A DNA stretch of 64,000 bases from an archaeon (GCA_035528795.1 DATKXY010000177.1:2634-66633), one strand, 5' to 3'; positions 41,483-57,726 are shown, counted from the first letter of the stretch. Numbers and translations are program-made. Notes: generated by a model from the sequence alone, not told the origin.

Positions 41483-41590
41483 TTTTACCTCTGTGAAAAA
41501 TTAAGGGAGTTTGGTTTGATCGATAGCTGGACTAAACTCACAGTTTTAGAGCGCAACGCCGAAAGCCTCTGTAAACCGGCGGCCGGCGCA

Positions 41591-43648
41591 TTATTGATCA
41601 TGCCCTGCGTTTGCCGCGGTTCCTTTGGGGAACGGAATATGGCTGCCGGAAATCTCGATACTCCCTCCGACTTCTGCTGTGGTAAAGCTGAGTTTTATCT
41701 CGCCGAGCGTGGCTCTGACCGCAGTGTCCGTAACCTCTGCGGATGCCTGCGGTACGCTGGCTGTGGCGGAGTCGGCTGCTGTCAACACATGCAGGAAGTA
41801 ATCCACAGCCGAGGGGGACGGCGGCGAAACCTCAACGCGGCACTCTGGCGCTGGACCCGTATCGCGCTCCGGGGGATAGCTCTTGCCGCCATAGGTATAC
41901 AGGTCCGGCCCTGAGAAAAGCTTCACCTGAGGATCAAGCGGCAGCACGGTCTGGATAAACAGCCGCCCCCTGCCGTTTGTGATCTGGAGGCTCGGCGCCT
42001 TGCCTGTAGGAGTCTTCATGGCCTGCAAGAGCCAGGTTTTTTTAAAGGCGGGATTCCTGGATTTCACCCGGTCGAAAATCACAAATGTGCCGGGCCGGAT
42101 AAAGACAATCTGACGGGTATAATATTCGAGCTTTTTAGGGGAATAGGCCCTTGAACAATCACCGGCTGCGTACAAGTGGCTTCCCAGGTCTTCATAAGCG
42201 AGCATGTCCGCGATGTCGAAAAGCCGGCGGTTTTTCTCCCAGTCAGCCACATCTACAGCTGCGCCGTTATGGTGCGGCCAGTCGTGCATCTGTCCGCCGT
42301 CATTGCCTAGCAGGCCCTTCCAGGCGCGGATATTGGTCCAGGTCTCATCCGGGTCATAGACCAGGATGGTGTTATGGGCTATTGTGCGCAGGTGATAGTT
42401 GACATCGTGGTCGCCGCCGAATGAGGAATAATGGCCGCCGTCGCCGGCAAGCTCCTCGTACTTGTAGATCAGGAAATTCCCCAAATCCAGGTGCTGGTGC
42501 GCGGTGAACCGGTCGCCGCATTTGAAAAAGAAGTAAGTGGCGTCCTCATCCCACGAGCTGCGCGCATAGACATAACCCGGGCCGGGACTGTAATGGGAAA
42601 GCTTGAAAGCTTTCAGATCGCCTTTTATAACTGAGGTGTCGCGCCACAGAAAGTCCTTGTATGCGTATGTGCTCACGGCCGACTGGGGCGTGGTCTCGTT
42701 GAATGTATGTACCGCCTGGTGCGCCGGGTCGTCACGGTAATGGCTCACCAGGATGCGCCTGGCGGAGAGCGCCTTGTCCCGGTCTCCGCCGAACACCCGG
42801 CCGCCGCTGTCGCCGATCGGGATCGGCCGGCGGGAGTTATACTCGCGCAAGCCCGGGTAGGCCTCGAACATGCTGGCCACGGCGCGGTCAGTGAAAAATT
42901 TCGGCGCGAGCCCGTAGCAATCGAAGCCTTCGCACAACCGGGCGACCTCGCAGAAAAAAAGCCATTCATAGGACCAGTAATTGATATAGTATCCCTCGGC
43001 AAATCCCCCGCCGTCCCCTGACAGCTCAAGGGCCGGAGCCGCACGCGTGATATAATCCTGTTTCGTGGTCTCGAGAATCTCAGGGGCCCGCTCGTTCTCG
43101 TAATATGTGGCATAGCAGGCCAGGCCGTACCCCCAATGCTTGTATCCATACCAGGCGTTGTGGAATACGTGGGTTTCCGAATTTAGATTGGCATCCACTG
43201 TCTTGTTCATGTAGTCGTGGAACCGGACCCGCTCTTCAGGGTTCCAGCAGGGATAGCACAGGTCGTAGACAATGGCGCAGCGGGCCAGATCTGAGCCGAA
43301 AGTGACATGGCCCTGCCGGATCGGTCCGTTGACATATCTCATGGCCATCTCAACAGCTTTTTCGCCGATCTCTTTGTCCCCTTCGATTGCGCAGACCAGG
43401 GACATGGAGATCATCTTCTCGTGGTCGCCAGCCTCCCGGTTCCGGGCCACATCCACCACGCGCGCATAAGCCTCCGGGCGCTCCCTGGCCAACTGCTGCA
43501 GCCGCTCGAGCGAGCCCAGAAGGCGCGGGTGTTCCTTAGGGACAGCCTGCTTTTTTGTTCCGGCCTCCTCTTGAGCGCAGCCGGTCAAGAAAAAAACGGA
43601 CAGCCCGAACAAGATCAAGCCATTTAAGAAACGCGTGGTTTTAGACAT
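41591..43648 (-). CDS. Heparinase II/III-like lipoprotein, paralog 2. Start refined to MSKTTRF.
   Basis: Lipobox LTGCAQ. Same conserved blocks as paralog 1. Confidence 0.55.
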   Translation of the reverse strand: MSKTTRFLNGLILFGLSVFFLTGCAQEEAGTKKQAVPKEHPRLLGSLERLQQLARERPEAYARVVDVARNREAGDHEKMISMSLVCAIEGDKEIGEKAVEMAMRYVNGPIRQGHVTFGSDLARCAIVYDLCYPCWNPEERVRFHDYMNKTVDANLNSETHVFHNAWYGYKHWGYGLACYATYYENERAPEILETTKQDYITRAAPALELSGDGGGFAEGYYINYWSYEWLFFCEVARLCEGFDCYGLAPKFFTDRAVASMFEAYPGLREYNSRRPIPIGDSGGRVFGGDRDKALSARRILVSHYRDDPAHQAVHTFNETTPQSAVSTYAYKDFLWRDTSVIKGDLKAFKLSHYSPGPGYVYARSSWDEDATYFFFKCGDRFTAHQHLDLGNFLIYKYEELAGDGGHYSSFGGDHDVNYHLRTIAHNTILVYDPDETWTNIRAWKGLLGNDGGQMHDWPHHNGAAVDVADWEKNRRLFDIADMLAYEDLGSHLYAAGDCSRAYSPKKLEYYTRQIVFIRPGTFVIFDRVKSRNPAFKKTWLLQAMKTPTGKAPSLQITNGRGRLFIQTVLPLDPQVKLFSGPDLYTYGGKSYPPERDTGPAPECRVEVSPPSPSAVDYFLHVLTAADSATASVPQASAEVTDTAVRATLGEIKLSFTTAEVGGSIEISGSHIPFPKGTAANAGHDQ

Positions 43649-43794
43649 AGCGAGTTTGCTCCTGTGGGGTGAGAAAAGGCGGTTTTCCCTTTTTACAGAA
43701 GGAATCTGATTCAACTTCCCGGACTGCAGGTAAATCCGATTCGAATCAAAGATACCTTTGAAAAATGTGATCATTTTGCTTTAGAACTATGGCC

Positions 43795-43905
43795 TGCTTT
43801 ATATAACTCTATAAAATTCAATAGGTTATTGATAGGGGCGGTTCGCGAACCGCCCCTACGGATAGAATATTATCCTTTTACCTGGGATTTTTTTAAAGGT
43901 CTCTC
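43795..43905. repeat. Intergenic repeat family A, reverse-orientation copy
   Basis: gataggggcggttcgcgaaccgcccctac perfect palindrome, plus the reverse complement of agagacctttaaaaaaatcccaggtaaaaggataa. Confidence 0.65.
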
Positions 43906-43958
43906 AAAGATAAATTTTTAAGGATTTTTTTAAGGAATCAAGGGTTCGCAGTTTTAAG

Positions 43959-46139
43959 CTACATCTTTTTCAGGCATTCGAGCACGTCGAGAACGTCTAT
44001 TGCCCCGTCCTCGTTCATGTCCGCGCAGACTGACTGCTGCCCGGTCGGAGCTCCCAGTCCCAAGGCGAACCGGAGGATCGTCACCGCGTCCAAGATATTT
44101 ACAGCACCGTCATCAGTGACATCCCCAGGCAGGAAGCACTCAGTACTCTCGAAAGTATAACCGACCTCGCCTGTCTTAAAAGTGATCTCTGTCCTGCCCA
44201 GCGTGACCTTGACCTCTGTTTCCGTGACCTGCGCCGCTGCCTGCGGGACGCTCGTGGTGGATGAGTCGGTGGCAGTCAAAACATGGAGGAAGTAATCCAC
44301 AGTTGCAGGCAGGAAGGGCGAGATCTCGATTCGGCACTCGGGCGCCGGGCCGGTATCGCTCTCCGGCGGATAGCTCCTGCCGCCGTAACTGTAAAGGTCC
44401 GAGCCTGAGTTAAGTTTTACCACGGACCTGGTTGGGAGCACGGTCTGCACGAACAGCCTTCCTCTCCCATTGGTGATCCGGAGGTTCGGCGCCTCCCCTG
44501 TGGGAGGTTTCATGGCCTGCAGGAGCCAGGTTTTTTTGTAGGTGGTTCTCCTAGATTTCACCCGGTCGAAAATCACGAATGTGCCGGGCCGGATGAAGAC
44601 GATCTGCCTGGTGAAATATTCGAGCTTGCCTGTTGAATAGGCTCTCGAGCAGTCGCCTGCCACATAAAGGTAGCGGCCCTGGTCTTCGAAAGCGAGTATA
44701 TCGGCGATATCGTACAGATTACGCCCTGTTTGCCAGGCCGCTGCGTCTTCGACAACTCCGTTATGATGGGGCCAGTTGTGGTGCTGCCCGCCGTCGTTGC
44801 CAGTGACCGTGCCTGCCCGGATGCCCGGCCAGGTCTCGTTCTGATCATAGACCAGTATCGTGTTATGGGCGATTGTGCGCAGGTGGTAGTTGACATCATG
44901 GAACGAGCCGAACGAGTCGTAATGGCCCCCGTCTCCGGCCAGCTCCTCGTACTTGCAGATCAGGAAATGCCCGTTGTCCAGATGCTGGTGCGCGGTGAAC
45001 CGGTCGCCGCATTTGAAAAAGAAATAGGTGGCGTCCTCATCCCACGAGCTGCGCGCATAGACATAACCCGCACCCGGGCTGTAATGCGAGAGCTTGAAAG
45101 CTTTCAGGTCGCCTTTGGGTACGGAGGTATCGTGCCACAGAAGGTCTTTGTAGGCGTAAGTGCCGGTAGCCGAGCGCGGAGTGGTCTCGTTAAAAGCGAA
45201 GACTGCCTGGTGCGCCGGGTCATCGCGGTAGCGGCTGACCAAAATGCGCCGGGCCGAGAGGGCCTTGTCCCGGTCGCCGCCGTATACCCTTCCTCCTCCG
45301 TCACCCATGGGAATCGGCCGGCGGGAATTATATTCGCGGATGCCGGGGTAAGCCTCGAACATGCTGGCCACGGCGCGGTTCCTGAAAAATTTAGGCGCCA
45401 TCTCATAGTAATCCAGCCCCTCACAGTAGCGGGCGACCTCGCAGAAAAACATCCATTCGTAGGACCAGTAGTTGATATAGTATCCCTCCGCCCAGCCGCC
45501 GCCGTCCCCGGCCAGCTCGAGGCACGGAGCGGCGCGGTTGCGGAACTCCTGCTCCAGGGCTTTGAGAATCCCAGGCGCGCGGTCGTTCTCGTAATATGTA
45601 GCATAGCAGGCCAGGCCGATCCCCCAATGCTTGTAGCCGTACCAGCCGTTGTGGAACGGCGAGGTCTCGGAGTTGACATTTCCATCCACAGTGGCGTTCA
45701 TGTATACATGAAACTTCGTGCGCTCCTCCTGAGTCCATGAGGAATAGCACAGGTCGTACACAACCGCGCAGCGCGCCAGGTCGTGGCCGAAAGTCTCATG
45801 GCCGATTATGATCGGGCCGTTGACATAGTTCATAGCCAATTCAACGGCCTCCCTGCCGATTGCGCTGTCCCCATCGATTGCACAGACCAGGGACATGGAG
45901 ATCATCCTCTCATGGTCTCCCGCTTCCTGGTTGTGTGCCACGCTCACAGTGCGCGCGTAGGCATCAGGCCGCTCACGGGCCAGTTCTTTCAGCCGCTCCA
46001 GCGAGCCCAACAGGCGCGGATGTTCAGTGGGGATAGAGTGCCGCGTGGAATCGCCAGCGCTCTGGGCGAATACGGCCAGACAAAACACCGAGAGCCAGGA
46101 AAGTGCCAGTCCAACTGATAACTTTATTAATTTAAACAT
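43959..46139 (-). CDS. Heparinase II/III-like secreted protein, paralog 3, with C-terminal dockerin-like module
   Basis: Conserved lyase blocks plus C-terminal GDVTDDGAVNILDAVTIL...DMNEDGAIDVLDVLECL (two Ca-binding loop repeats). Confidence 0.55.
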   Translation of the reverse strand: MFKLIKLSVGLALSWLSVFCLAVFAQSAGDSTRHSIPTEHPRLLGSLERLKELARERPDAYARTVSVAHNQEAGDHERMISMSLVCAIDGDSAIGREAVELAMNYVNGPIIIGHETFGHDLARCAVVYDLCYSSWTQEERTKFHVYMNATVDGNVNSETSPFHNGWYGYKHWGIGLACYATYYENDRAPGILKALEQEFRNRAAPCLELAGDGGGWAEGYYINYWSYEWMFFCEVARYCEGLDYYEMAPKFFRNRAVASMFEAYPGIREYNSRRPIPMGDGGGRVYGGDRDKALSARRILVSRYRDDPAHQAVFAFNETTPRSATGTYAYKDLLWHDTSVPKGDLKAFKLSHYSPGAGYVYARSSWDEDATYFFFKCGDRFTAHQHLDNGHFLICKYEELAGDGGHYDSFGSFHDVNYHLRTIAHNTILVYDQNETWPGIRAGTVTGNDGGQHHNWPHHNGVVEDAAAWQTGRNLYDIADILAFEDQGRYLYVAGDCSRAYSTGKLEYFTRQIVFIRPGTFVIFDRVKSRRTTYKKTWLLQAMKPPTGEAPNLRITNGRGRLFVQTVLPTRSVVKLNSGSDLYSYGGRSYPPESDTGPAPECRIEISPFLPATVDYFLHVLTATDSSTTSVPQAAAQVTETEVKVTLGRTEITFKTGEVGYTFESTECFLPGDVTDDGAVNILDAVTILRFALGLGAPTGQQSVCADMNEDGAIDVLDVLECLKKM

Positions 46140-46326
46140 AATCCGGCAGCTCCTGTGTATTGAGGAATGGAGTGTCTCTCTGGATTATCGACAGGATCAG
46201 GTCTGCCCGCGGACAGCGGTTGAAACTCCTGAACAGATTTCGGGCAAACAGCACCCAATCAATCAAGACACCCCGGCCTGATGGCCGGAAGCTTTATATC
46301 TCAGGATCTCTGATCCTGCATAAAAT

Positions 46327-48429
46327 CTACTCGGCTATGATCTGTTTAGCTAACGGGACACGTCTGCCCGAAATCTCGATCTCTCCCCCGACAGCGTCTT
46401 TTGTAAAGACAAGCTTAGCCTCGCCGAGCGCGGCTGTGACCTCTGTGTCCGTAACCTGCGCCACTGCCTGGGGGACACTGGAACAGGCGGAGTCTGTAGC
46501 TGTCAATACGTGCAGGAAGTAATCCACAGCCGAAGGCGAGGACGGCGAGACCCCGACACGGCACTCGGGCGCCGGGCCCCGTTCCTCCTCAGGCGCATAG
46601 CTCTTGCCGCCGTAGGTGTAAAGGTCCGACCCCTGGTTGAGCTTCACCAGGGCCTTTTCTGGCAGCACGGTCTGGACAAACAGCCGCCCCCTGCCGTTGG
46701 TGATCACAAGCTCTGGCGCCTTGCCTGTGGGCGGCTTCGCGGCCTGAAGCTGCCAGGTCTTCCTGAAATTCGGGTCTTTGGATTTCACCCGGTCGAAAAT
46801 CACGAATGTGCCGGGCCGGATAAAGACAATCTGGCGGGTGAAATATTCGAGCTTTTTCGGCGAGTAGGCCCGCGAGCAGTCCCCGGCCACGTAGAGGTAT
46901 TCGCCCCTGTCCTCAAAGGCGAGCATGTCCGCGATATCGTAAAGCTGGCGGTTTTTCTCCCAGTCAGCCACATCTACAGCCGCGCCGTTGTGGTGCGGCC
47001 AGTCGTGCATCTGCCCCCCGTCATTGCCTATCGCACCTTTCCAGGCCCGGATGTTAGTCCAGGTCTCATCCGGGTCGTAGACCAGTATCGAGCTGTGGGC
47101 GATCGTGCGCAGGAGATAGTTGACATCGTGCTCCCCGCCGAAATAATAGTACTGGCCGCCGTCCCCGGCGAGCTCCTCATACTTGCAGATCAGGAAATGC
47201 CCGTTGTCCAGGTGCTGGTGCGCGGTGAAGCGGTCGCCGCATTTGAAATAGAAATAAGTGGCGTCCTCATCCCACGAGCTGCGCGCGTAAACATAGCCTG
47301 CACCCGGGCTGAAATGCGAGAGCTTGAAAGCTTTCAGGTCGCCTTTGTTGACAGTAGTATCCCGCCAGAGGAAGTCCTTGTAAGCGTTTCCGGGCACTCC
47401 TGAGACAGGGGTGGTCTCGTTGAAAGCATGCACCACCTGATGCGCCGGGTCGTCGCGGAAAAAGTTCACCAGGATGCGCCTGGCGGAGAGGGCCTTGTCG
47501 CGCTCAGGACGGAATTTCTGGCCCCCGCTGTCGCCCATGGGGATCGGCCGGCGTGAATTGTTCTCGCGGATCCCAGGGTAGGCCTCGAACATGCTGGCCA
47601 CGGCGCGGTTAGTGTAAAACCTGGGCGCCAGCTCATAGCAGTCGAACCCCTCGCATCTCCGCGCCACCTCGCAGAAAAACATCCATTCATAGGACCAGTA
47701 ATTGATATAGTACCCCTCCGCCCATCCGCCGCCGTCCCCGGCCAGCTCAAGGGCCGGAGCCGCGCGCGTGATATAATCCTGCCTGGTGGTCTCGAGAATC
47801 TCCGGGGCGCGCTCGTTCTCGTACCAGGTCGCATAACAGGCCAGGCCGTATCCCCAGTGTTTGTATCCGTACCAGGCATTGTGGAACACATGGGTCTCGG
47901 AGTTCACATTGGCATCCACTGTCCGGTTCATGTAGTCGTGGAATTTCAGGCGCTCTTCCTCTGTCCAGCAAGGATAGCACAGGTCGTAAACCAGGGCGCA
48001 GTTGGCCAGGTCGTGGCCGAATGTCTCATGGCCCACCCGGACCGGGGCCTCGATATATTTCATGGCCATCTGCACGGCCTGTTTGCAGAGCTCATTGTCC
48101 CCGTCGATCGCGCAGACCAGCGCCATGGAAATCATCTTCCCGTGCCTGTCAGCTATCAGCTGGTCGCCGGCCTCGATATTGCGCGCTACACCCACAACAC
48201 GCGCATAGGCCTCAGGCCTCTGCTCGGCCAGGTCCTGCAGTTCCTGCCTGGAGCCCAGCAGACGCGGGTGTTCCTTGCTGATTGCGTGCCTTGTAATACC
48301 AGTCTGCCCGGGAGTGGAAACAGCCTGTACCGGGGTTGACTCTTTCTCTTTTTTTGCGCACCCGGCCCAGCAAAAGACAGACAGACAAAGCAACACCAAA
48401 GCCTTCTGTAAATAAGTTGATCCAGACAT
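46327..48429 (-). CDS. Heparinase II/III-like lipoprotein, paralog 4. Start refined to MSGSTYLQ.
   Basis: Lipobox WAGCAKK. Conserved blocks as above. Confidence 0.55.
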   Translation of the reverse strand: MSGSTYLQKALVLLCLSVFCWAGCAKKEKESTPVQAVSTPGQTGITRHAISKEHPRLLGSRQELQDLAEQRPEAYARVVGVARNIEAGDQLIADRHGKMISMALVCAIDGDNELCKQAVQMAMKYIEAPVRVGHETFGHDLANCALVYDLCYPCWTEEERLKFHDYMNRTVDANVNSETHVFHNAWYGYKHWGYGLACYATWYENERAPEILETTRQDYITRAAPALELAGDGGGWAEGYYINYWSYEWMFFCEVARRCEGFDCYELAPRFYTNRAVASMFEAYPGIRENNSRRPIPMGDSGGQKFRPERDKALSARRILVNFFRDDPAHQVVHAFNETTPVSGVPGNAYKDFLWRDTTVNKGDLKAFKLSHFSPGAGYVYARSSWDEDATYFYFKCGDRFTAHQHLDNGHFLICKYEELAGDGGQYYYFGGEHDVNYLLRTIAHSSILVYDPDETWTNIRAWKGAIGNDGGQMHDWPHHNGAAVDVADWEKNRQLYDIADMLAFEDRGEYLYVAGDCSRAYSPKKLEYFTRQIVFIRPGTFVIFDRVKSKDPNFRKTWQLQAAKPPTGKAPELVITNGRGRLFVQTVLPEKALVKLNQGSDLYTYGGKSYAPEEERGPAPECRVGVSPSSPSAVDYFLHVLTATDSACSSVPQAVAQVTDTEVTAALGEAKLVFTKDAVGGEIEISGRRVPLAKQIIAE

Positions 48430-48613
48430 GGTCGGGTTTCTCCTCTGAAAAGGGAAGTTAAGTGAGATACGGTTAGTGACGGCAGCGGGTCGTCTAAAGA
48501 ACGGCAATTGGAATCCGGATCGAATCCGGGACAAACTGCATTCAAGAAATCTCGAGATCCAGGTCATAGAATGAACTAACCATTATTTCAGGCTCAATGT
48601 TCCTGCCGGAACA

Positions 48614-50656
48614 TTACTGAGCCACTATCTCCTTAGCGAACTGGGTGCGTCTGCCGGCGACCTCGATCCCTCCGCCGACCTCCTGAGTAGTAAAGACAAT
48701 CTTCCTCCCGGCGACCGTGACCGTGACCTCCGAGTCTGTCACCTCGGCGGCAGCCTGGGGCACGCTCACTGTGGACGAGTCTGCCGCTGTCAGGACATTC
48801 AGGAAATAATCCACTTCCGCGGGCACTGGCGGCGATACCTCGATGCGGCACTCTGGCGCCGGGCCGACATTGTGATAGGGCGGATAGCTCCTGCCGCCGT
48901 AGCTGTAAAGCACCGGGCCGGAGAAGAGCTTTACTCTGGGTTCCAGCGGCAGCAGGATCTGGACAAACAGCCGCCCCCTGCCGTTAGTGATCTGGAGGCT
49001 CGGCGCTTCGCCGGTGGGAGGCTTCATGGCCTGAAGGAGCCAGGTTTTCTCGAACCCCGGGTCTTTGGATCTCACCCGGTCGAAAATCACGAATGTGCCG
49101 GGCCGGATAAAGACAATCTGGCGGAAGAAATACTCGAGCTTTTTCGGCGAGTAAGCTCTGGAGCAGTCGCCTGCCACATAGAGGTAGCCGCCCCGGTCCT
49201 CGAAAGCGAGCATGTCCGCGATGTCATAGAGCTTGCGCCCTTCCACCCAGGCAGCGGCATCCTGGACAGAGCCGTTGTGATGGGGCCAGTTGTGGTGCTG
49301 CCCCCCGTCATTGCCGATCGGGCCCTTGAAAGCGCGGATCGCGGGCCAGGTCTCGCCCGGATCGTGGACCAGGATTGAGTTATGGGCGATAGTGCGCAGA
49401 AGGTAGTTCACCTCGTGGTCAGTGTCGAACGCATAGAACTGGCCGCCGTCGCCCGCCAGTTCCTCGTACTTGTAGATCAGGAAATTCCCCACATCCAGGT
49501 GCTGGTGCGAGGTGAACCGGTCGCCGCACTTGAAAAAGAAGTAGGTGGCGTCTTCATCCCACGAGCTGCGCGCATAGACATACCCCGGGCCTTGGCTGAT
49601 ATGCGAGAGCCTGAAATTTTTCAGGTTGCCTTTCTTGACACTCGTATCGCGCCAGAGAAAATCCTTGTAGGCATTCGCCACTACACCCGAGACCGGAGTG
49701 GTCTCGTTAAAAGAGTGCACCACCTGGTGCGCCGGGTCATCCCGGAAAAAGTTCACCAGGATGCGCCGGGCTGAGAGGGCCTTGTCGCGCTCGCCTGTAA
49801 ATACCCGGCCCCCGCTGTCGCCCATGGGAACCGGTCGGCGGGAATCGCGCTCCCTGATACCAGGGTAAGCCTCGAACATACCGGCCACTGCGCGGTTCCC
49901 TAAAAATTCAGGGGAAAGGTCGAAATAATCCATCCCCTCGCATCTTCGCGCCACCTCGCAGAAAAACATCCATTCATACGACCAGTAGTTGACATAATAG
50001 CCCTCGGCCCAGCCGCCGCCGTCCCCGGCAAGGGCAAAGGATGGGACCACGCGCTCGCGGAACTCATTCTCCAGGGCTTTTAAAATCTCCGGCGACCGGG
50101 GGTTCTCGTAATATGTCGCATAGCACGCCAGGCCGATCCCCCAGCTCTTGTACCCGTACCAGCCATTGTGGAACACGCTGGTCTCCGAGCCGAGATTGGC
50201 ATCCACTGTGCGGTTCAGGTAGTCGTGGAATTTCATGCGCTCTTCAGCGGACCAGCAGGGGTAGCACAGGTCGTAAGCAAGCGCGCAGCGGGCCAGGTCG
50301 TGGCCGAAAGTCTCATGGCCCACCCGGACCGGGCCGTTTATATATCTCATGGCTATCTCGACAGCCTTCTTGCCGTACCACTGATCCCCCTTGATCGCAT
50401 AGAGCAGGCCCATGGAGATCATCTTCTGGTGATCGTCCCCCTCCTGCTCGAACGCCACCTCAGCGACACGGACAAAATCCCCGGGTTTCTGCCTGGCCAG
50501 CTCTTTCAGCTCTCCCGCTGTGCCCAACAGCCGTGGATGTTCCCGGCTTACCGGGTGTCTCGTTGACACGGTTTCAGCCGAGAATAGCCCTGTGCAGCAG
50601 AAAAGGAACAACGCGCTCAGACCAAAGGCATTTATGTTTTTTATGGATTTGCACAT
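48614..50656 (-). CDS. Heparinase II/III-like secreted protein, paralog 5
   Basis: Signal peptide. Conserved blocks as above. Confidence 0.55.
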   Translation of the reverse strand: MCKSIKNINAFGLSALFLFCCTGLFSAETVSTRHPVSREHPRLLGTAGELKELARQKPGDFVRVAEVAFEQEGDDHQKMISMGLLYAIKGDQWYGKKAVEIAMRYINGPVRVGHETFGHDLARCALAYDLCYPCWSAEERMKFHDYLNRTVDANLGSETSVFHNGWYGYKSWGIGLACYATYYENPRSPEILKALENEFRERVVPSFALAGDGGGWAEGYYVNYWSYEWMFFCEVARRCEGMDYFDLSPEFLGNRAVAGMFEAYPGIRERDSRRPVPMGDSGGRVFTGERDKALSARRILVNFFRDDPAHQVVHSFNETTPVSGVVANAYKDFLWRDTSVKKGNLKNFRLSHISQGPGYVYARSSWDEDATYFFFKCGDRFTSHQHLDVGNFLIYKYEELAGDGGQFYAFDTDHEVNYLLRTIAHNSILVHDPGETWPAIRAFKGPIGNDGGQHHNWPHHNGSVQDAAAWVEGRKLYDIADMLAFEDRGGYLYVAGDCSRAYSPKKLEYFFRQIVFIRPGTFVIFDRVRSKDPGFEKTWLLQAMKPPTGEAPSLQITNGRGRLFVQILLPLEPRVKLFSGPVLYSYGGRSYPPYHNVGPAPECRIEVSPPVPAEVDYFLNVLTAADSSTVSVPQAAAEVTDSEVTVTVAGRKIVFTTQEVGGGIEVAGRRTQFAKEIVAQ

Positions 50657-51402
50657 TACCTGGCAGCTCCTCCGGCGGTGAGAAAAGGGGTGAAGCCGTT
50701 GTCAGGAAAAGTAACATCTCCGGACTGAAAAGACGGCAAATGAAAATCTGAACCGGATTGTGATAATTTGCAAGGAGTTTTTGAAAGGAGGTAAGACTTT
50801 AGGTCGACCACCAAAGTTGAAGATAGTTGTGAGCTTCTAATTAAAGCGATAGTTTGAAAGAACTCGTAGTGACAAGGTACTACTAGACCTTAACTTTAAT
50901 AAATTCGGAAATTTATAACTTTAGCACTTTTTCACACAGATTTAGAATGTTTTATGACTTTTGCAGCCTATCAAAAGTACTAAAAATTTTTGGCGTGTAG
51001 TAAATCGAAGACCTCCGTAGGCTTCAAATAAACCTCTGTTGCTAATAGGGGCTTTATCTGTTAATCTCTTGAGACTCATAAAGGAGGCCTGGTTGCGGCC
51101 TGGGAACGCATGCCGTTGAAGATTTAAAAGAATGACCTTGTTAACCAAATAAATTTAGATTTAATGGCAATATCTTAAAAATGTAGTTCTGAAATAGAAA
51201 TAGATAGAAAATGTACGGTTCTTCTTGACTTCAATGATTTTGAACATTATAAAAAAAATAGATAATAAAAAAGGCAGTTGTTGAAAATTTAAGATACAAT
51301 ATTTAAGTTAAATTTTAATAAATTAGACATGTATTAGTTTTATTTAATTAAAGAACTAGATTTACAATAAGTTATAAATATTGTTCTTTTAAGGAGATTA
51401 AA

Positions 51403-54327
51403 ATGAATGGATATAAAAATCTTTTGGAAAGGCTTGAGAAACTAAAAGAAAATATAGCTATCTTCCAAAAAGTAGTATTACACGCTCATTCCCCTGACAG
51501 TTATGACTATGCGCAAATTATTAAAAGAAAAGAAAAAATGGTTTTTGATACAAGAGATAAAAATATTATTGAAAATATTTTCTTGGAGGAGATAAAATCT
51601 ATTAACATAGATATGTTAGCAATAACAGATCACATGAAATGTGATTTTTCTTGTCGATTGTCACAATTAGCTAAAAAAAGTAATAAATGTATTCTTCCTG
51701 GAATGGAAATTAATTTTCAACCTTCACCACCTTTAGATACTTTTAAACTACATATAATAGCAATATTCCCCGAAGATTACACACTTGAGCAAATATGCAA
51801 GATTTTACCTAAAGACATACCAGATGAAAAAAATCGCACCGGGAGAGAATTAATAAAGGGTTCAGATCTTACAGTATTTATTAAAACCATCCATGATTTT
51901 GGAGGACTTTGTATAGCAGCACATATTGATAATGAAAGTGGAGTTAGAAAAGCCTTTAGACAGCTTGGTAAAGATGGAATTGTATTATATTCAACCGAAG
52001 GAGAATCTTCTAAAGAAGAGGATAGACAAATTTCAGGAAAATTCAAAGACTGGATTCTCACCTCTGGTTTTGATGCAATTGAAGTGGCAAAAGAGACAGA
52101 TAAAGAGCATTACCGTTGGATTAGTGAAATAGCAGGTAAAAAAGTTAGTATCCCGGTTCTTTTGTCAACAAATGCTCACAATGCTCAAGATATTGCAAAT
52201 GAAAATCGAGTTACGCATATAAAAATGACTTCCATTTGCTTTGAAGGCTTAAAGCAAGCTCTTCAATTTCCTGATACACGTATTAGATTTCCTGGTGATG
52301 TACCAATTCCTCCGTCGCCTATTATCCTTGGTCTAGAAATAATTGCTAGTGATGAAAAAGGCTTTTTTAAGACACTTCGGATTTCATTCTCAGATAATCT
52401 TACATGTCTAATAGGACCTCGAGGTTCTGGAAAGTCAACTATCATTGAGGCACTTCGTTATGCTTTTGGCTACAATAGAACATTACATGAGATTGAACAA
52501 CCTAGTGCAGATTTAGCTAATAAAGTGAAAGGACTTCAAGAAGCTACTTTAACCAATTGCGTTATTCGCGTAGTATATTGTGTCAAGGATAGAGAAAATC
52601 ATATCTTGGAGGCCACCTATGATCAAAAACAAGATTACACAACTAGGGTTTTTACAATAAATGGAGATGAACGGGAAGTCCATGATGTTGAAACTAGTGG
52701 ATTATATCCTATGAGACTTTTCGGATGGAGTGAAATAGAAACTTTAGGACGAGAAGCACATCGCCAAAGAGACCTTATTGATAGACTTATACCTGGGATT
52801 AATGTAAAACTTGAACAATTGTCAGATTTCAGATCCTCGCTAGCAGATAAACGAAGAAACATTGAGACCTTAGTGTCCAATCTTTCAAATACAATACTAA
52901 GAAACAATGGTGAAATAAAAAGATATAAGGAATATAAAGCAGATTTCGATCTACTTAATACACCAGTAGTACAACAGTTGTTTTTGGAAATTGATACAGC
53001 AAAAACAAAAGAAAAAATTCTATCAGAACTTAAAAATAAAACACAAGAAAGGATAGATTCACTTTTGAACACTATGAAAACAGAACTTTTTGAAGGTCTT
53101 GATGAATTGCTTATTGATCCATCAGAAACACTTAAAAATTGGTGGTCTGAAACTAAATTAGAATTAAAGATTCCCGATATAGAAGCTGATGTACGTAAAA
53201 AAACTAACCAAGCAGTAGATCTTTTAAAAGATCTTGTACATGAAGTAGATATAAATATTCAAAAATTAAAAGAAATAATACAGAAAAAGGAAACGGAAAT
53301 TAGAGAAAAAGTTAGTGATGAAACTGCCAAACAAGTGGCTGCTGAAAGGAGAAGAATAGCTGAAGAACGCCTTCAGCGCGTGCAAGAACTAAAACGGGAT
53401 TATAAAAAAATATGGGAACAATTTGAAGATAACATAAAAAATTGGATGGAGATAGCAAAAAAACTTGCAGATTTATCAGATGAAATTAGTGATAAAAGAG
53501 CAAGGCGAAAAGAAGAGATTGAATCTCGCCTTAATCAATTTGGAACTCAAGAAATGAAAATATCCTTACGGTTTAAATCTGGTGGAGATAGAATAAATTT
53601 TGAAAATTATCTTCGTGATAGTGGTTTTTTAAATAGAGACTTACATGGTAATTACAAGGCAAACAAATGGCCTGAGAAAATTTCTTCGAACTACACTCCA
53701 ATTGAATTGGCAAAAGCAATACTATTAAAAAAACCACACCAAATAAACAAAAGTACCTCTCTTATGGTAAAATTATTATTAGATAATGACATTGAAAAAA
53801 GATTGATAGATACACTTTTTCCATTCAGTCATGATGATGATGCTGATATACCAATAGTCGATAGTAAAAAACTCGATAAAATTTTGGAGATGGCAGAAGT
53901 GGTTTGGAATGATGAAGAAGGCATACTTCTGAATAATAGACCTGTTGAGAATCTTTCGCCTGGACAAAGGTCGAGCGCTATGCTGCCACTAATCGCCCTG
54001 TCAGAAGATGCACCTTTAGTTATCGACCAGCCAGAAGATAATCTTGATAACCGTTTAGTTGGTAAAATGCTTGTTGACATACTTACAGATCTTAAAGAAA
54101 AACGACAAATCATAGTTGCAACCCATAATCCTAATATAGTAGTCTCTGGAGATGCAGAACAGGTAATTGTTCTTGATGCTCTAAGTGATTCTGAGGGAAT
54201 TTGCACTCAAAGTGGTTCTATTGACAATAAGGAAATTATAAAATCAATTCTCGAAATTATGGAAGGAGGTAAGGACGCTTTTATTGCAAGACAGCATAGA
54301 TATGGTCTTTCTAATTCGTCAATATAA
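51403..54327 (+). CDS. PHP-domain phosphoesterase fused to an SMC/Rad50/SbcC-like ABC ATPase with long coiled coil. Candidate single-gene defence protein (Ppl-like).
   Basis: AAGGAG SD 7 nt upstream. PHP motifs LHAHSPDS, AITDHM, GMEINF, HIIAIF, AAHID, TNAHNAQD. Walker A GPRGSGKST. ~400-aa K/E-rich coiled coil. Signature-like LSPGQRS. Walker B LVIDQPEDNLD. H-loop ATHNP. Strongly AT-rich gene and flanks. Confidence 0.8.
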   Translation: MNGYKNLLERLEKLKENIAIFQKVVLHAHSPDSYDYAQIIKRKEKMVFDTRDKNIIENIFLEEIKSINIDMLAITDHMKCDFSCRLSQLAKKSNKCILPGMEINFQPSPPLDTFKLHIIAIFPEDYTLEQICKILPKDIPDEKNRTGRELIKGSDLTVFIKTIHDFGGLCIAAHIDNESGVRKAFRQLGKDGIVLYSTEGESSKEEDRQISGKFKDWILTSGFDAIEVAKETDKEHYRWISEIAGKKVSIPVLLSTNAHNAQDIANENRVTHIKMTSICFEGLKQALQFPDTRIRFPGDVPIPPSPIILGLEIIASDEKGFFKTLRISFSDNLTCLIGPRGSGKSTIIEALRYAFGYNRTLHEIEQPSADLANKVKGLQEATLTNCVIRVVYCVKDRENHILEATYDQKQDYTTRVFTINGDEREVHDVETSGLYPMRLFGWSEIETLGREAHRQRDLIDRLIPGINVKLEQLSDFRSSLADKRRNIETLVSNLSNTILRNNGEIKRYKEYKADFDLLNTPVVQQLFLEIDTAKTKEKILSELKNKTQERIDSLLNTMKTELFEGLDELLIDPSETLKNWWSETKLELKIPDIEADVRKKTNQAVDLLKDLVHEVDINIQKLKEIIQKKETEIREKVSDETAKQVAAERRRIAEERLQRVQELKRDYKKIWEQFEDNIKNWMEIAKKLADLSDEISDKRARRKEEIESRLNQFGTQEMKISLRFKSGGDRINFENYLRDSGFLNRDLHGNYKANKWPEKISSNYTPIELAKAILLKKPHQINKSTSLMVKLLLDNDIEKRLIDTLFPFSHDDDADIPIVDSKKLDKILEMAEVVWNDEEGILLNNRPVENLSPGQRSSAMLPLIALSEDAPLVIDQPEDNLDNRLVGKMLVDILTDLKEKRQIIVATHNPNIVVSGDAEQVIVLDALSDSEGICTQSGSIDNKEIIKSILEIMEGGKDAFIARQHRYGLSNSSI

Positions 54328-54550
54328 GAAACATTATTTTAATTATTCAAAACATAATTAATTCCAGGTTTGCTTGATTAATAAAAAATATAAATGTTTT
54401 TTTAGTATTTTTGAGTATAACTACCCCCCTGCAAGCACACCAACCCCTTTGCCAACCTATTCCTAGCGCTGGCGGCTCACTAATGGTGAAAACCCGGGAC
54501 CAAAATCAAGAGTTACTAAAAAATTCGCCTGACCGATGAGAGAAATACAG

Positions 54551-54850: not shown

Positions 54851-55150
54851 GTGCTGGAATTGATAAGTTTACAGGCCCTGCAGCCTGTGCGGGAAAAATA
54901 AAGCGCAGGACTAAAAAATCAGCTTGACTCCTTCCCTCGAGCCAGGCTTAGACTTACCCGGAACAACCCATTTATTCTATTCTGAAATGAACCAGCCTGC
55001 GGCAAGCCGCGAGGTATCTGTTCGGAATTCGATTTATGAATTTGATGCCACACTTTCACACCACCCCCATAGAGGGCACGGCATGCCGTGCCCCTACGGC
55101 TGGAATCAGCGGCAGGATGCCCGGAAGCAGAGCTTCGAGGAATTCTTTTC

Positions 55151-55317
55151 GAATGAACTACCCCGCGGCAAACTGCGAGGTATCATAAGGTTGGTAATGA
55201 TTATTTTCACCATCCGCCCCCGGGCGACCGCCGGTCGCCCCTACGGTTAGCTTAAGGGGTCGTTTACCCCTCAGCAGAGCTTCGAGGAATTCTTTTCGAT
55301 TAAAAAAATTATTTTCC
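55151..55317. repeat. Intergenic repeat family B, copy 2. A partial third copy lies at 54985..55020.
   Basis: About 88% identical to 5767..5921. Confidence 0.7.
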
Positions 55318-55530: not shown

Positions 55531-55700
55531 AGAGACCTTTAAAAAAATCCCAGGTAACAGGATAAATTTTGCATGTAGGGGCGAGTTTGAAACCCGCCCC
55601 TACAATAATACATTGATTTTTATGGTTTTATAAAAAAGCAAACAATATTCTTCTGGTAAAAGGATAACATTTTTCAAAGGTTTCATAAAAACTCTCATGT
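55531..55700. repeat. Intergenic repeat family A, copy
   Basis: agagacctttaaaaaaatcccaggtaacaggataa...gtaggggcgagtttgaaacccgcccctacaataa...AT-rich tail, shared with 16594..16752. Confidence 0.7.
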
Positions 55701-55950: not shown

Positions 55951-57726
55951 TCACCTGCCATTGGCGAAAAGCAGCTTTCCTTTCATGCCCTTTTTGACCG
56001 CTTGGATCTCCTCTCCGAAAAGCAGGCTGAGCATTGTGGGCGCCACATCGCTTAGGGTGCCGTCCTCGCGGAGCTTCGTTTTGGGCGGGCCAACCAGGAA
56101 GAAAGGCACCTTGTTGCTGGTATGGAAAGTGTTTAGCTCTCCGTCCTCGGTGATCATCTCCTCGATATTGCCGTGGTCGGCGGTGATAATGGCAAAGCCC
56201 CCCTTGGCCCGGATTGCGGTCACTATGCGCTCGAGGCTTTTGTCCACGGCCATCATGGCCATGATGCCCGCGCTGATATCCCCGGTGTGCCCGACCATAT
56301 CCGGGTTGCACAAATTGATCAGCAAGACAGTTTTCGAGTCCCCGGCCTCGATAATCTCGATGATCTTTTCAGTCAAATCTTCGATCTCTATTTTGGGGAA
56401 TTTCCGGTAAGGCTCGAACTTGTAGCCTGTCTCACCCTTATGCTGGTCGTATTCCTTGATATAGCGGCGCACCTCGGAGGACAGCGGAATTGTGATTCTC
56501 TCTTCACCCGGTAACGGGGCGCCGACCTTGTTTCCAGAGAGCAGAGTGAGCGCTTTGGCCTTATCCACGCCACTGACCCGGTACTGGTTAAAGTTGTAGT
56601 TGGCAAGCACCTTGCCCAGACTTATATCCTGGATCGGCTCCCGGAAGGCCACCGGGCATCTCATGCCGCGGTAATACTCCACCAGCCCCACGATATGCAG
56701 GGTATCATAGTGCAAAGCGGGTTTATTTTTCCAGCGCTCGAAACGCTTAAGGCCTGTGTAGGTGTCATCCGGAGAATTCCTGAGCCTCTCGGTAATGTCG
56801 GTTACGGGGTCCACCAGCATGCGCATCAGGAATTCCCCCCGGTCCTTGCGGAAATTCCATTGAATCAGCACATCGTTGTTCTCCACGCCTGCATAGTCCC
56901 CGAGCACTGTGGGCGTAATGTACTGGTCGGTAAGGCCCTTGTCATAAGCTGCCTTAAGCGCTTGCTCCGGTTCTTCCATCCGCGGGCCCTGGCCTTCCAC
57001 AATGGCGCGGAAAGTAGCCTCGGTTTTGTACCAGGATTCCGTACTGCGGTTCATGGTTATGTCCCGCCCGCCGATAGTGGCCACCTTGTAATCGACTTTA
57101 CGCTCCTTGTTGAGTTCTTCCGCTGTGGTTATCATCAGCAGCATGTCATTTAAATCTTCCAGAAAACGCGCGGCGCTGAAAGGCGGCGTTCCCCGTCCGT
57201 CAGAGAAATAATGGATGCGGATCTTGCCTGCCCCGCGCTGGACAATCCGGCGGAGAATCGCATAAAGGTGGATGATATGGCTGTGCTCCTGGTTGTTAGA
57301 GACCAGACCGATCAAATGGATTGCACTGTTATGGGCCACAGCGTGATCGATAGCTTCATCGATTGCCGGATTAACCATTACACCATCGATTACAGCGCTG
57401 TTTATCTGATGCATTGGATGAACATAGTCGACGCCGCTCAAGACCTCGTGTCCCACTGCAGTAGAGCCTTTAGCGCCCTCCGGCATGCCCACTTTCGGCC
57501 CTACGGCCACCAGCTCGGTGTAGCTTGTTTCCTCGAAAAGCGCGCCGGTCCTTACATCGCGCACTGCCTGGCATATACCGTCGCGCAGACAATCAAGAAA
57601 AGGAGTCTGGGCCAGGGCCACGCAGTTGTAAGCCTCTTCATCTCTCACACCGCAACCGTCCATGATAATGAGAGCGGACGGACCGTTAAACTTTTGCATC
57701 TTTTTGTTTTCAGCGGGGGGACTCAT
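55951..57726 (-). CDS. gpmI: 2,3-bisphosphoglycerate-independent phosphoglycerate mutase (iPGM)
   Basis: N-terminal ALIIMDGCG. C-terminal DMVGHTG...ITADHGN. Confidence 0.85.
   Translation of the reverse strand: MSPPAENKKMQKFNGPSALIIMDGCGVRDEEAYNCVALAQTPFLDCLRDGICQAVRDVRTGALFEETSYTELVAVGPKVGMPEGAKGSTAVGHEVLSGVDYVHPMHQINSAVIDGVMVNPAIDEAIDHAVAHNSAIHLIGLVSNNQEHSHIIHLYAILRRIVQRGAGKIRIHYFSDGRGTPPFSAARFLEDLNDMLLMITTAEELNKERKVDYKVATIGGRDITMNRSTESWYKTEATFRAIVEGQGPRMEEPEQALKAAYDKGLTDQYITPTVLGDYAGVENNDVLIQWNFRKDRGEFLMRMLVDPVTDITERLRNSPDDTYTGLKRFERWKNKPALHYDTLHIVGLVEYYRGMRCPVAFREPIQDISLGKVLANYNFNQYRVSGVDKAKALTLLSGNKVGAPLPGEERITIPLSSEVRRYIKEYDQHKGETGYKFEPYRKFPKIEIEDLTEKIIEIIEAGDSKTVLLINLCNPDMVGHTGDISAGIMAMMAVDKSLERIVTAIRAKGGFAIITADHGNIEEMITEDGELNTFHTSNKVPFFLVGPPKTKLREDGTLSDVAPTMLSLLFGEEIQAVKKGMKGKLLFANGR

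What the first reader, a model, noticed from the sequence alone, without database searches (positions are those of the whole stretch)
50657..54540. AT-rich island carrying a single 974-aa PHP-nuclease / SMC-like ATPase fusion gene: candidate single-gene anti-phage or DNA-surveillance system
Seen in sequence: about 3.9 kb of strongly AT-rich DNA sits between two GC-rich regions (the lyase array and the small membrane protein / repeat cluster). It contains a ~750 bp A/T-tract-rich leader and one long ORF with a canonical AAGGAG SD.

The protein, read from the translation:
- aa 1-290: PHP phosphoesterase with all expected metal-ligand motifs (HxH, DH, E, H, AAH, NAH-type).
- ~aa 320-470: ABC/SMC head N-lobe with Walker A GPRGSGKST.
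- ~400 aa of heptad-like K/E/L-rich coiled coil.
- C-lobe with signature-like LSPGQRS, Walker B LVIDQPEDNLD, D-loop, and H-loop ATHNP.

Established knowledge: a nuclease plus a Rad50/SbcC/OLD-type ATPase is the logic of SbcCD, OLD, Gabija, Lamassu and related defence systems. From memory of defence-island surveys, a single-gene candidate called Ppl is a PHP + ATPase fusion.

Inference: this is a horizontally acquired, possibly xenogeneically silenced, defence gene. Its PHP-SMC-coiled-coil arrangement is the reverse of OLD (ATPase-Toprim), and it has no partner genes.
Basis: partly seen in the sequence, partly recalled or inferred. Interest (0 to 1): 0.85.

Follow-up and report, generated by a model that had tools for sequence, protein, structure and literature searches.

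The report
Acquired TrlF/Ppl-family PHP nuclease–ATPase gene
A foreign, AT-rich 3.7-kb insert in a Glassbacteria-like chromosome carries one gene for a nuclease-plus-ATPase fusion from an already named family (TrlF) related to the phage-defence protein Ppl, and this copy has an unusual change at one conserved active-site residue.

Summary
ORF 51403-54327 (+) encodes 974 aa at GC 0.33 (GC3 0.20), against about 0.53-0.58 (GC3 0.68-0.75) in the flanks.

It is not a new kind of gene:
- It passes NCBIfam's curated 'TrlF family AAA-like ATPase' model end to end (390 bits, cutoff 350).
- The identical protein is already in NCBI.
- The superfamily has about 2,800 50%-identity clusters.
- It is a distant relative (about 23% identity) of the validated single-gene defence protein Ppl, but fails the Ppl equivalog model (184 bits against 1000).

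The gene is an insertion. Five related Glassbacteria contigs lack it at the conserved iPGM junction, and one relative has a frameshifted copy there. Its clade has no conserved partner gene. Neighbours elsewhere are recombinases, RM enzymes and nucleases.

New detail: this copy has N257 where 113 of 113 close homologues have Asp, at the presumed metal-ligand Asp of the last PHP motif. Its nuclease may therefore be attenuated.

Verdict: a new, possibly decaying, member of a known kind. Interest is modest.

The parts
50700..54415 (.). AT-rich inserted block (island) between the first gene of the lyase array and the 99-aa ORF/iPGM side
   Evidence: 100-nt GC profile drops from 0.60 to 0.39 and below after about 50,700 and returns to 0.50-0.60 after about 54,415. 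Gene-sized window z = -5. The same block, 100% identical, occurs in three other assemblies. It is absent at the syntenic iPGM junction in five relatives.
50657..51402 (+). 746-bp AT-rich 5' leader with no recognisable gene or RNA
   Evidence: No ORF above 72 aa and none with homologues. No Rfam match at E<=1. No similarity to leaders of homologues except the RBS region TTTTAGGAGAT. Promoter-like hits are no more frequent than in shuffles.
51391..51396 (+). Shine-Dalgarno AAGGAG, 6 nt before the ATG
   Evidence: Sequence read directly.
51403..54327 (+). 974-aa ORF: TrlF-family PHP-ABC/SMC-like ATPase fusion
   Evidence: NCBIfam NF045780, 390.3 bits (cutoff 350), residues 20-968 against profile positions 4-944 of 944. 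483 or more homologues, full length, 40-65% identity. AF2 model pLDDT 83.7.
51460..52287 (+). PHP phosphoesterase domain (aa ~20-295); ligands H27 H29 D35 H77 E102 H117 H174 N257(!) H259
52171..52173 (+). Codon AAT = N257, replacing the family-invariant Asp of the last PHP motif (DxH)
   Evidence: D in 113/113 other full-length homologues and in 59/62 wider family members. The identical protein is present in at least four assemblies.
52318..52797 (+). ABC/SMC head N-lobe (aa 306-465) with Walker A GPRGSGKST (52414-52440)
   Evidence: Pfam SMC_N, AAA_15, AAA_23 and AAA_29. PDB profile hits to Smc4/Smc heads. K344 invariant.
52798..53535 (+). Antiparallel coiled-coil insertion (aa 466-711); apex 559-589 with invariant W580 and near-invariant W581, no Cys
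   Evidence: AF2 helices 466-518, 521-558, 590-636 and 641-711. Apex alignment. Segment length about 245 aa in all subgroups.
53536..54324 (+). ABC head C-lobe (aa 712-974): signature LSPGQRS (53953-53973), Walker B PLVIDQPEDNLD (54013-54048), H-loop ATHNP (54118-54132)
   Evidence: Pfam AAA_21 and SMC_N. The motifs are invariant across the family. D875-Q876-P877-E878 is invariant in 114 + 62 sequences.

Best explanation
The island carries one horizontally acquired gene of the TrlF family, the PHP-ABC ATPase superfamily that also contains the anti-phage protein Ppl. It belongs to a roughly 970-aa clade that has no partner gene.

Shown:
- The protein is a PHP-fold phosphoesterase fused to a Rad50/SMC-like ABC head, whose two lobes are separated by a roughly 245-aa antiparallel coiled coil without a zinc hook.
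- The gene is foreign to its Glassbacteria/Gemmatimonadota host and is sporadic among relatives.
- Family members sit on plasmids, next to recombinases, and among restriction or defence genes.

Inferred by analogy with Ppl, SbcCD/Rad50-Mre11 and OLD-type nucleases:
- Two protomers pair through nucleotide-bound heads.
- The ATPase acts as a DNA-end or nucleotide-state sensor more than as a motor. The residue after the Walker B Asp is an invariant Gln throughout the family, where ABC ATPases usually have the catalytic Glu.
- The PHP domain degrades invading DNA from free 3' ends.

In this particular copy the presumed metal-ligand Asp257 is Asn. The nuclease is therefore probably weakened or dead, which fits a gene that is being tamed or is starting to decay.
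For: Family:
- NF045780 passes its cutoff end to end.
- PGAP labels homologues TrlF.
- 2,778 cluster representatives at E<=1e-30.

Fold:
- The whole-chain Foldseek hits cover only the ATPase/coiled-coil part and are MukB, Smc, RecF, RecN, Rad50 and JetC, at E 1e-10 to 1e-6.

Ppl link:
- PADLOC Ppl is the best model, E = 1.5e-35.
- Collinear 23% identity to a Ppl-like protein.
- Ppl is a single-gene defence protein with PHP and ATPase domains.
- A review summarises Ppl as an NTP-inhibited ssDNA 3'-5' exonuclease that senses 3'-OH ends (primary citation).

Foreignness:
- The GC deficit of -0.21 to -0.24 is the largest of 75 loci, and GC3 is 0.20.
- The junction is empty in L093, and the gene is absent in L092, L094, L095 and one further contig.

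Mobility and defence context of relatives:
- Large serine recombinases, Eco57I RM, Toprim, PLD nuclease, integrase, VapBC, PD-(D/E)XK with UvrD.
- DUF1156, DUF262, DUF499 and SNF2 on a haloarchaeal plasmid.
- Directly after brxL on a Klebsiella conjugative plasmid.

Other:
- Solo members keep the full PHP ligand set, whereas TrlG-partnered ones do not.
- Walker B DQPE is invariant.
- N257 is unique.
Against: - There is no experimental data for this clade. The link to Ppl is only about 23% identity, and the Ppl equivalog model is failed by a wide margin (184 against 1000 bits).
- The TrlF score is only just above its cutoff, and a clade member (L012) scores 345, below it.
- The only genetics on a protein named TrlF (Photorhabdus) found no phenotype attributable to trlF itself.
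- In the window the gene is not in a defence island; its neighbours are lyases and housekeeping genes.
- D257N, together with a frameshifted copy in the nearest relative, may mean the gene does nothing here.
- The assignment of D257 as a metal ligand rests on motif order and invariance, not on a solved structure (one search aligned only the first three motifs).
Confidence: 0.62

Rival explanations
1. The gene is a decaying remnant. It was acquired as a defence or selfish nuclease-ATPase, has lost nuclease activity through D257N, and no longer has a function in this host.
For: - N257 is the only exception among 114 close homologues, at a residue conserved even in family members with otherwise degenerate PHP sites.
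- The copy at the same junction in the nearest relative carries a frameshift.
- The gene is missing in five other relatives.
- GC3 of 0.20 in a 0.7 host suggests poor adaptation to host translation.
Against: - The 2.9-kb reading frame is otherwise fully intact, with every other catalytic and ATPase residue conserved and a strong SD.
- The identical sequence is maintained in at least four independently assembled samples.
- Asn can still ligate metals, so activity may be reduced, not abolished.
- The L091 frameshift lies in an A-rich run and could be an assembly error.
Confidence: 0.25
2. It is half of a two-gene TrlF-TrlG system, as in Photorhabdus, where the AlbA_2/HATPase_c_4 partner is the effector. 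The partner would be encoded elsewhere or has been lost.
For: - The family name comes from the trlR-trlF-trlG operon.
- 22 of about 75 family loci have an AlbA_2 + HATPase_c_4 gene immediately downstream.
Against: - None of the roughly 14 loci of the window's own ~970-aa clade has that gene at +1. One (L017) has a DUF4062-HATPase_c_4 gene upstream.
- There is no such ORF within the island.
- TrlG-partnered proteins have degenerate PHP sites (20 of 21 lack H259, 10 of 21 have QxN for HxH). The window's clade keeps the full site, which argues for a self-contained enzyme.
Confidence: 0.05
3. It is a housekeeping DNA-repair enzyme, a single-chain SbcCD/Rad50-Mre11 analogue that processes hairpins or DNA ends for the host.
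For: - The architecture is nuclease plus Rad50-like head plus coiled coil.
- RefSeq attaches the GO term 'double-strand break repair' to family members.
Against: - Extreme compositional foreignness.
- Present in 2 of 7 related lineages at this junction.
- Frequent plasmid carriage and association with recombinases and RM genes.
- No zinc hook.
Confidence: 0.05

Closest known systems
TrlF family AAA-like ATPase (NCBIfam NF045780; type member TrlF of the Photorhabdus laumondii temperature-restriction locus, PMC7554251)
   Same: End-to-end match above the curated cutoff. Same PHP-like N-terminus, ABC head, roughly 245-aa coiled coil and invariant DQPED Walker B.
   Different: - The window's clade scores at the margin (345-390 bits), against 500-630 for other subgroups.
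- It is about 90 aa longer.
- It lacks the TrlG and TrlR partners.
- It keeps a complete PHP ligand set, which TrlG-partnered members have lost.
Ppl (single-gene anti-phage protein of E. coli; NCBIfam NF042955, PADLOC PDLC02208)
   Same: Single-gene, PHP + NTPase fusion with collinear domain order. Ppl is the best PADLOC model. The mechanism reported for Ppl (NTP-gated 3'-5' ssDNA exonuclease that senses 3'-OH ends) is the best available working model.
   Different: - About 23% identity to a Ppl-like protein.
- 184 bits against the 1000-bit equivalog cutoff.
- Different clade, different phylum, and N257 in the active site.
SbcCD / Mre11-Rad50
   Same: ABC head split by an antiparallel coiled coil and working with a metal-dependent nuclease on DNA ends. 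Rad50, RecN, RecF, Smc and MukB heads are the top structural matches.
   Different: - The nuclease is a PHP domain fused in cis, instead of a separate Mre11/SbcD calcineurin-like phosphoesterase.
- The coiled coil is short and has no CxxC zinc hook.
- The Walker B Glu position is Gln.
OLD-family and related defence ATPase-nucleases (Gabija GajA, PARIS AriA/AriB, Septu PtuA/PtuB)
   Same: An ABC-type ATPase of the AAA_15/AAA_21 kind coupled to a nuclease. PADLOC and PDB give weak hits to AriA, PtuA and GajA.
   Different: The nuclease is N-terminal PHP, not C-terminal Toprim or a separate HNH/Toprim protein, and the coiled-coil insertion is much longer. Similarity is restricted to the ATPase motifs.
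PHP-family nucleic-acid enzymes (EndoQ, RNase AM/YciV, Pol III alpha/PolC/PolX PHP exonucleases)
   Different: These are stand-alone or polymerase-attached domains, and none is fused to an SMC-like ATPase.

Membership tests
TrlF family (NCBIfam NF045780) | Whole-protein score at or above the curated cutoff (350 bits), with an end-to-end match | tested here: met
   390.3 bits, residues 20-968 against profile positions 4-944 of 944. This is marginal: the clade scores 345-390, and L012 falls just below the cutoff.
TrlF family (NCBIfam NF045780) | Architecture: PHP-like N-terminal domain + ABC ATPase head split by a coiled coil | tested here: met
TRL operon as described in Photorhabdus (trlR-trlF-trlG) | Adjacent AlbA_2 + HATPase_c_4 gene (TrlG) and a small regulator (TrlR) | tested here: not met
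   No such ORFs in or next to the island. The partner is absent at +1 in the whole ~970-aa clade, yet present in 22 loci of distant relatives.
Ppl (NCBIfam NF042955 equivalog) | Score at or above the 1000-bit equivalog cutoff | tested here: not met
   184 bits in 3 stretches.
Ppl (PADLOC/DefenseFinder call) | Passing the tools' own per-model score and coverage rules | not testable with these tools
   Only the raw hmmscan is available: PDLC02208 is the best PADLOC model, E = 1.5e-35, 120.6 bits, 3 stretches. PADLOC's rule file was not run.
Ppl (function) | Protection against phage when expressed alone; PHP-dependent 3'-5' exonuclease | not testable with these tools
   Known for E. coli Ppl only from the literature. 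There is no experiment on this clade.
PHP superfamily | Distorted (beta/alpha)7 barrel fold | tested here: met
PHP superfamily | Nine metal-ligand residues (HxH, D/H, H, E, H, H, DxH) | tested here: inconclusive
   Eight of nine are present. The ninth is N257 in place of the invariant D. Whether Asn supports catalysis is unknown. The register of the last motif is inferred, not aligned to a structure.
SMC/Rad50-type ABC ATPases | Walker A, Q-loop, signature, Walker B, D-loop and H-loop, with a coiled coil inserted between the lobes | tested here: met
   Pfam SMC_N at 62.5 bits (above 40) spanning residues 314-917. The motifs are invariant. Structural hits. Deviation: the residue after the Walker B Asp is Gln, not Glu, family-wide.
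SMC/Rad50-type ABC ATPases | Apex dimerisation module (SMC hinge or Rad50 CxxC zinc hook) | tested here: not met
   The apex (559-589) is about 30 residues, has no Cys, and carries only a conserved WW.

The most novel reading that the evidence does not exclude
The roughly 970-aa solo clade is a functionally distinct, uncharacterised single-chain 'SbcCD-like' defence nuclease. Within the TrlF superfamily there would then be a division of labour. Solo forms, including this clade and Ppl, are self-contained PHP nucleases. TrlG-partnered forms have an inactivated PHP site and act only as sensors for a Schlafen-like effector. The window's D257N allele would be a naturally attenuated or sensor-only intermediate of that transition.
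Probability: 0.2. Interest if true: 0.55.

Novelty: new member of a known kind. Interest (0 to 1): 0.3.

Why it matters
For this window it matters little. The gene belongs to a curated, widespread family whose best-studied relative, Ppl, already has a published mechanism.

Three things are worth keeping:
- The window's clade is uncharacterised, has no partner gene and sits at the edge of the TrlF model. It is a reasonable candidate for testing whether the Ppl mechanism generalises.
- Across the family, loss of PHP ligands tracks the presence of the TrlG partner. This suggests how a nuclease-ATPase can turn into a sensor for a separate effector, and it explains why Photorhabdus suppressors mapped only to trlG.
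- The D257N allele, together with a frameshifted copy at the same chromosomal site in a relative, gives a natural example of defence-gene attenuation or decay.

The deposited MAG is also mislabelled 'archaeon'.

Tried and rejected
- A literature search for 'TrlF' alone returned only the spectroscopy acronym TRLFS. Adding 'ATPase' returned irrelevant papers. The name was finally traced through 'trl locus'.
- My first recollections of the name's origin were both wrong. I recalled a Helicobacter tRNA-associated locus for TrlF, and Rousset 2022 for Ppl. A review table lists ppl in the same row and under the same reference [20] as tmn, qatABCD, hhe, mzaABCDE and upx, which I recall as the Gao et al. 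2020 set; the snippet did not show reference 20 itself.
- The primary Ppl paper (Mol Cell 2026) is not held.
- Sequence searches of the PDB gave only ATPase-head hits with the full protein or profile, and nothing significant for the PHP domain profile. Fold search was needed.
- No Ppl or TrlF experimental structure turned up in the PDB copy.
- tRNA, integrase and flanking direct repeats as island boundaries: no tRNA in the window, and only weak 17-nt repeats of 82% identity near the borders, judged to be chance.
- A leader RNA or small ORF such as trlR: none found.
- Promoter and terminator scans gave nothing above shuffles.
- PHROGs gave only weak hits to families of unknown function.
- I first read the 359-aa 'AAA_21/SMC_N' gene next to iPGM in L091 as a different ATPase. 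It is a frameshifted TrlF-like copy.
- Whether the window and L091 copies are orthologous or independently acquired could not be settled.
Full report
**Observation**

The window holds one long ORF at 51403-54327 on the + strand: 974 aa, ATG start, TAA stop. AAGGAG lies at 51391-51396, six bases upstream of the ATG.

The ORF sits in a low-GC block from about 50,700 to 54,415.
- Gene GC is 0.332.
- 541 other windows of the same length in the 64 kb average 0.528 (sd 0.039, minimum 0.435), giving z = -5.
- Third-position GC is 0.20, against 0.75 for the adjacent lyase gene and 0.68 for iPGM.

The 746-bp leader has no credible ORF, no Rfam match and no similarity to the leaders of homologues beyond the ribosome-binding region. 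The coiled coil is about 245 residues, not about 400. The last PHP motif, 'NAH', is an anomaly and not an accepted variant (see 'The active-site anomaly').

**What the protein is**

NCBIfam places the protein end to end in NF045780, 'TrlF family AAA-like ATPase': 390.3 bits against a cutoff of 350, residues 20-968 on profile positions 4-944 of 944. Two related models are matched but failed: Spaf_1101 (226 bits against 475) and the anti-phage protein Ppl (184 against 1000). In PADLOC the best model is Ppl (E = 1.5e-35, three stretches), followed by the ATPase parts of mad3, AriA, PtuA and GajA. Pfam gives SMC_N, AAA_21, AAA_15 and AAA_23 above threshold, and PHP only at 16 bits.

Because the PHP call was weak by sequence, I tested it by fold.
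- A profile of the N-terminal domain finds no PDB relative by sequence.
- An AlphaFold2 model of residues 1-305 (pLDDT 85, pTM 0.85) matches only PHP-family structures by Foldseek.

The full-length model (pLDDT 83.7, pTM 0.66) shows the following layout:
- the PHP barrel, residues 20-295;
- an ABC head N-lobe, 306-465;
- helices 466-558 and 590-711 forming an antiparallel coiled coil;
- a roughly 30-residue apex containing W580 (invariant in the 34-sequence alignment A1) and W581 (conserved in at least 90% of it), and no cysteine;
- the head C-lobe, 712-974.

Whole-chain Foldseek hits cover only the ATPase and coiled-coil part. They are MukB, Smc, RecF, RecN, Rad50 and JetC (E 1e-10 to 1e-6). 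No Ppl or TrlF structure was found in the PDB copy.

**Where the name comes from and what is known**

TrlF is the large 'histidinol phosphatase'-annotated gene of the Photorhabdus laumondii temperature-restriction locus trlR-trlF-trlG (PMC7554251). In that study, all suppressor mutations that allowed growth at 36 C fell in trlG (AlbA_2 + HATPase_c_4). None fell in trlF.

Ppl is a single-gene defence protein with ATPase and PHP domains (PMC11482910). A review table lists it in the same row and under the same reference as tmn, qatABCD, hhe and mzaABCDE, which I recall as the Gao et al. 2020 set (PMC13223576). A 2026 review summarises E. coli Ppl as an ssDNA 3'-5' exonuclease (PMC12904381). According to that summary, Ppl is inhibited by NTPs bound to both its domains and is activated by nucleotide depletion together with 3'-OH ends made by a phage homing endonuclease. 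The primary paper is Xu et al., Mol Cell 2026 (cited). I could not read it.

**How common the family is**

- The identical protein is already in NCBI as 'AAA family ATPase [archaeon]'.
- Full-length homologues at 40-65% identity number in the hundreds.
- At least 578 GTDB species representatives encode a relative.
- An exhaustive profile search finds 2,778 50%-identity clusters at E<=1e-30.
- RefSeq annotates plasmid copies as TrlF family in many phyla, including a haloarchaeal plasmid.
- One copy sits directly after brxL on a Klebsiella conjugative plasmid.

**Host and island status**

The flanks are a heparinase-II/III-like lyase paralogue array on one side and iPGM plus an ATP-cone protein on the other. 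The nearest iPGM homologues (74-82% identity) are from Candidatus Glassbacteria/Gemmatimonadota MAGs. The host is therefore a bacterium of that lineage, and the 'archaeon' label looks wrong.

In relatives, the gene order TPR-AAA_16, aspartokinase, GFO_IDH, CBS, ATP-cone, iPGM is strictly conserved, while the other side of iPGM varies.
- L093 has iPGM followed directly by the dockerin and heparinase-like array, with no TrlF-like gene. This is an empty site.
- L092, L094, L095 and one further contig also lack the gene.
- The closest relative, L091 (82% iPGM identity), does carry a TrlF-like gene. It is tail to tail with iPGM as in the window and is also AT-rich (0.26-0.34 against 0.52). It has a frameshift at the coiled-coil apex.
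- The L091 copy is only 58.6% identical to the window protein. Proteins from unrelated genomes reach 64-66%. I cannot tell whether the two same-site copies descend from one old insertion or from separate acquisitions at a hotspot.

Across 75 loci the family gene is typically a little lower in GC than its flanks (median -0.03). The window is the most extreme case, at -0.21 to -0.24. That condition is not met, because the only syntenic homologue is equally foreign in composition.

**Partners**

Clustering the neighbours of 75 loci shows one recurrent partner. It is an AlbA_2 + HATPase_c_4 gene, the TrlG architecture, lying immediately downstream on the same strand in 22 loci. All of these accompany distant relatives of about 870-900 aa and about 25% identity, which score 500-530 bits on the TrlF model. 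The window's roughly 970-aa clade scores 345-390 and never has that gene at +1.

Neighbours of the window's clade vary. They include large serine recombinases, an Eco57I-type RM enzyme, Toprim, a PLD nuclease, an integrase fragment, VapBC, PD-(D/E)XK with UvrD, and DUF1156. The 99-aa ORF downstream in the window is on the opposite strand, has host GC, and has no counterpart in any other locus. 'No partner gene' therefore holds.

**The active-site anomaly**

In 114 full-length homologues, the positions H27, H29, H77, E102, H117, H174 and H259 are invariant or nearly so. Position 257 is Asp in all 113 others and Asn only in the window. In a wider set of 62 family members, D257 is kept in 59. It is kept even where other ligands are lost.

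The codon is AAT at 52171-52173. The identical protein was assembled from at least four samples, so this is a real allele. By motif order this Asp is the Asp of the terminal DxH ligand pair of PHP enzymes. hhalign against YcdX confirmed the register of the first three motifs only, so the assignment of residue 257 is an inference. In my experience, Asp-to-Asn substitutions at a metal ligand usually cripple such enzymes, but this was not tested here.

**A family-level pattern seen in passing**

- Most solo members keep all PHP ligands.
- 20 of 21 TrlG-partnered members lack H259.
- 10 of 21 TrlG-partnered members have QxN in place of HxH.

This fits the Photorhabdus result that only trlG matters for the growth-arrest phenotype. 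It suggests that partnered TrlF proteins are sensors, while solo ones are self-contained nucleases. Separately, the residue after the Walker B Asp is Gln, not the usual catalytic Glu, in all 176 sequences examined (DQPED). That is compatible with nucleotide sensing more than with fast hydrolysis, and with the NTP-gating reported for Ppl. This last point is an inference.

**Mechanism, with levels of support**

Shown:
- the domain architecture and folds;
- family membership;
- foreign origin;
- sporadic distribution;
- mobile and defence-type contexts of relatives;
- the unique N257.

Inferred:
- The protein dimerises through nucleotide-bound heads and the coiled coil.
- It recognises DNA ends or the nucleotide state.
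- It degrades invading DNA with its PHP site, as reported for Ppl.
- In this copy the nuclease is probably attenuated.

I put about 0.6 on 'acquired solo TrlF/Ppl-type defence nuclease-ATPase', about 0.25 on 'already non-functional remnant', and about 0.05 each on 'needs a TrlG-like partner elsewhere' and 'housekeeping repair enzyme'.

**Verdict**

This is a new, marginal and possibly decaying member of a known, curated family. Interest 0.3.

Noticed in passing
window 52171-52173: Codon AAT (N257) replaces an Asp that is invariant in 113 of 113 close homologues and kept in 59 of 62 wider family members. It is the only deviation in an otherwise complete PHP ligand set, and it is present in the identical protein from at least four independent assemblies.
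   Followed up: yes
L024, L025, L027, L030-L032, L038, L039, L041-L044, L046, L054, L056, L059, L064, L066, L075, L076, L078, L084 (the family gene plus the gene immediately downstream): Across the TrlF superfamily, members followed by an AlbA_2 + HATPase_c_4 (TrlG-like) gene have degenerate PHP sites: 20 of 21 aligned members lack the last His and 10 of 21 have QxN in place of HxH. Most solo members keep all ligands. This would explain why Photorhabdus suppressors mapped only to trlG.
   Followed up: partly
window 54025-54036 (D875-Q876-P877-E878): The position after the Walker B Asp, normally the catalytic Glu in ABC ATPases, is an invariant Gln in all 176 family sequences examined, with an invariant Glu two residues later. 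This suggests nucleotide sensing or slow hydrolysis.
   Followed up: partly
L091 3425-5061 (JGI 3300035688): The closest Glassbacteria relative carries a TrlF-like gene at the same iPGM junction. It is also AT-rich, is 58.6% identical to the window protein, and is interrupted by a frameshift in the coiled-coil apex. This is either a pseudogene or an assembly error in an A-rich run.
   Followed up: partly
window, whole (for example iPGM 55951-57726): NCBI labels the source MAG 'archaeon' (locus-tag prefix VM123). However, iPGM and its conserved neighbourhood match Candidatus Glassbacteria/Gemmatimonadota MAGs at 74-82% identity, so the taxonomic label is probably wrong.
   Followed up: partly
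window 54986-55304: Local direct repeats lie between the 99-aa ORF and iPGM: a 68-nt unit at 55090 and 55237 (76% identity, with an exact 26-nt core GCAGAGCTTCGAGGAATTCTTTTCGA present twice) and a 33-nt unit at 54986 and 55152. There is also a 15-bp perfect-stem hairpin at 55574-55604. Function unknown, and no significant Rfam match.
   Followed up: partly
window 39449-50656 (- strand): An array of at least five paralogous genes of roughly 680-750 aa for heparinase-II/III-like proteins, one with a dockerin domain. The paralogues are about 70% identical at the DNA level to a similar array next to iPGM in relative L093. Two members (680 and 746 aa) have no Pfam hit at all.
   Followed up: no
window 50657-51402; L006 7143-8168; L096 6450-7193; L008 1-665: Long (650-1,025 nt) upstream non-coding leaders recur in the closest homologues. 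They share no sequence except the RBS region TTTTAGGAGAT.
   Followed up: partly
L089 1343-3959 (Vibrio phage 10N.286.54.E11_PE001, PQ189346): A 14-kb integrated element with a PM2-like capsid gene carries a PHP protein and an ATPase as two adjacent CDSs next to its integrase. Together they match the window protein. This is either a split two-gene version of the family or a frameshift.
   Followed up: no
window 57723-58928 (- strand): The ATP-cone + AAA_33/Zeta-toxin-like 401-aa gene overlapping the start of iPGM is strictly conserved next to iPGM in all Glassbacteria relatives examined, so it is a core gene pair and not a toxin-antitoxin or defence gene.
   Followed up: partly
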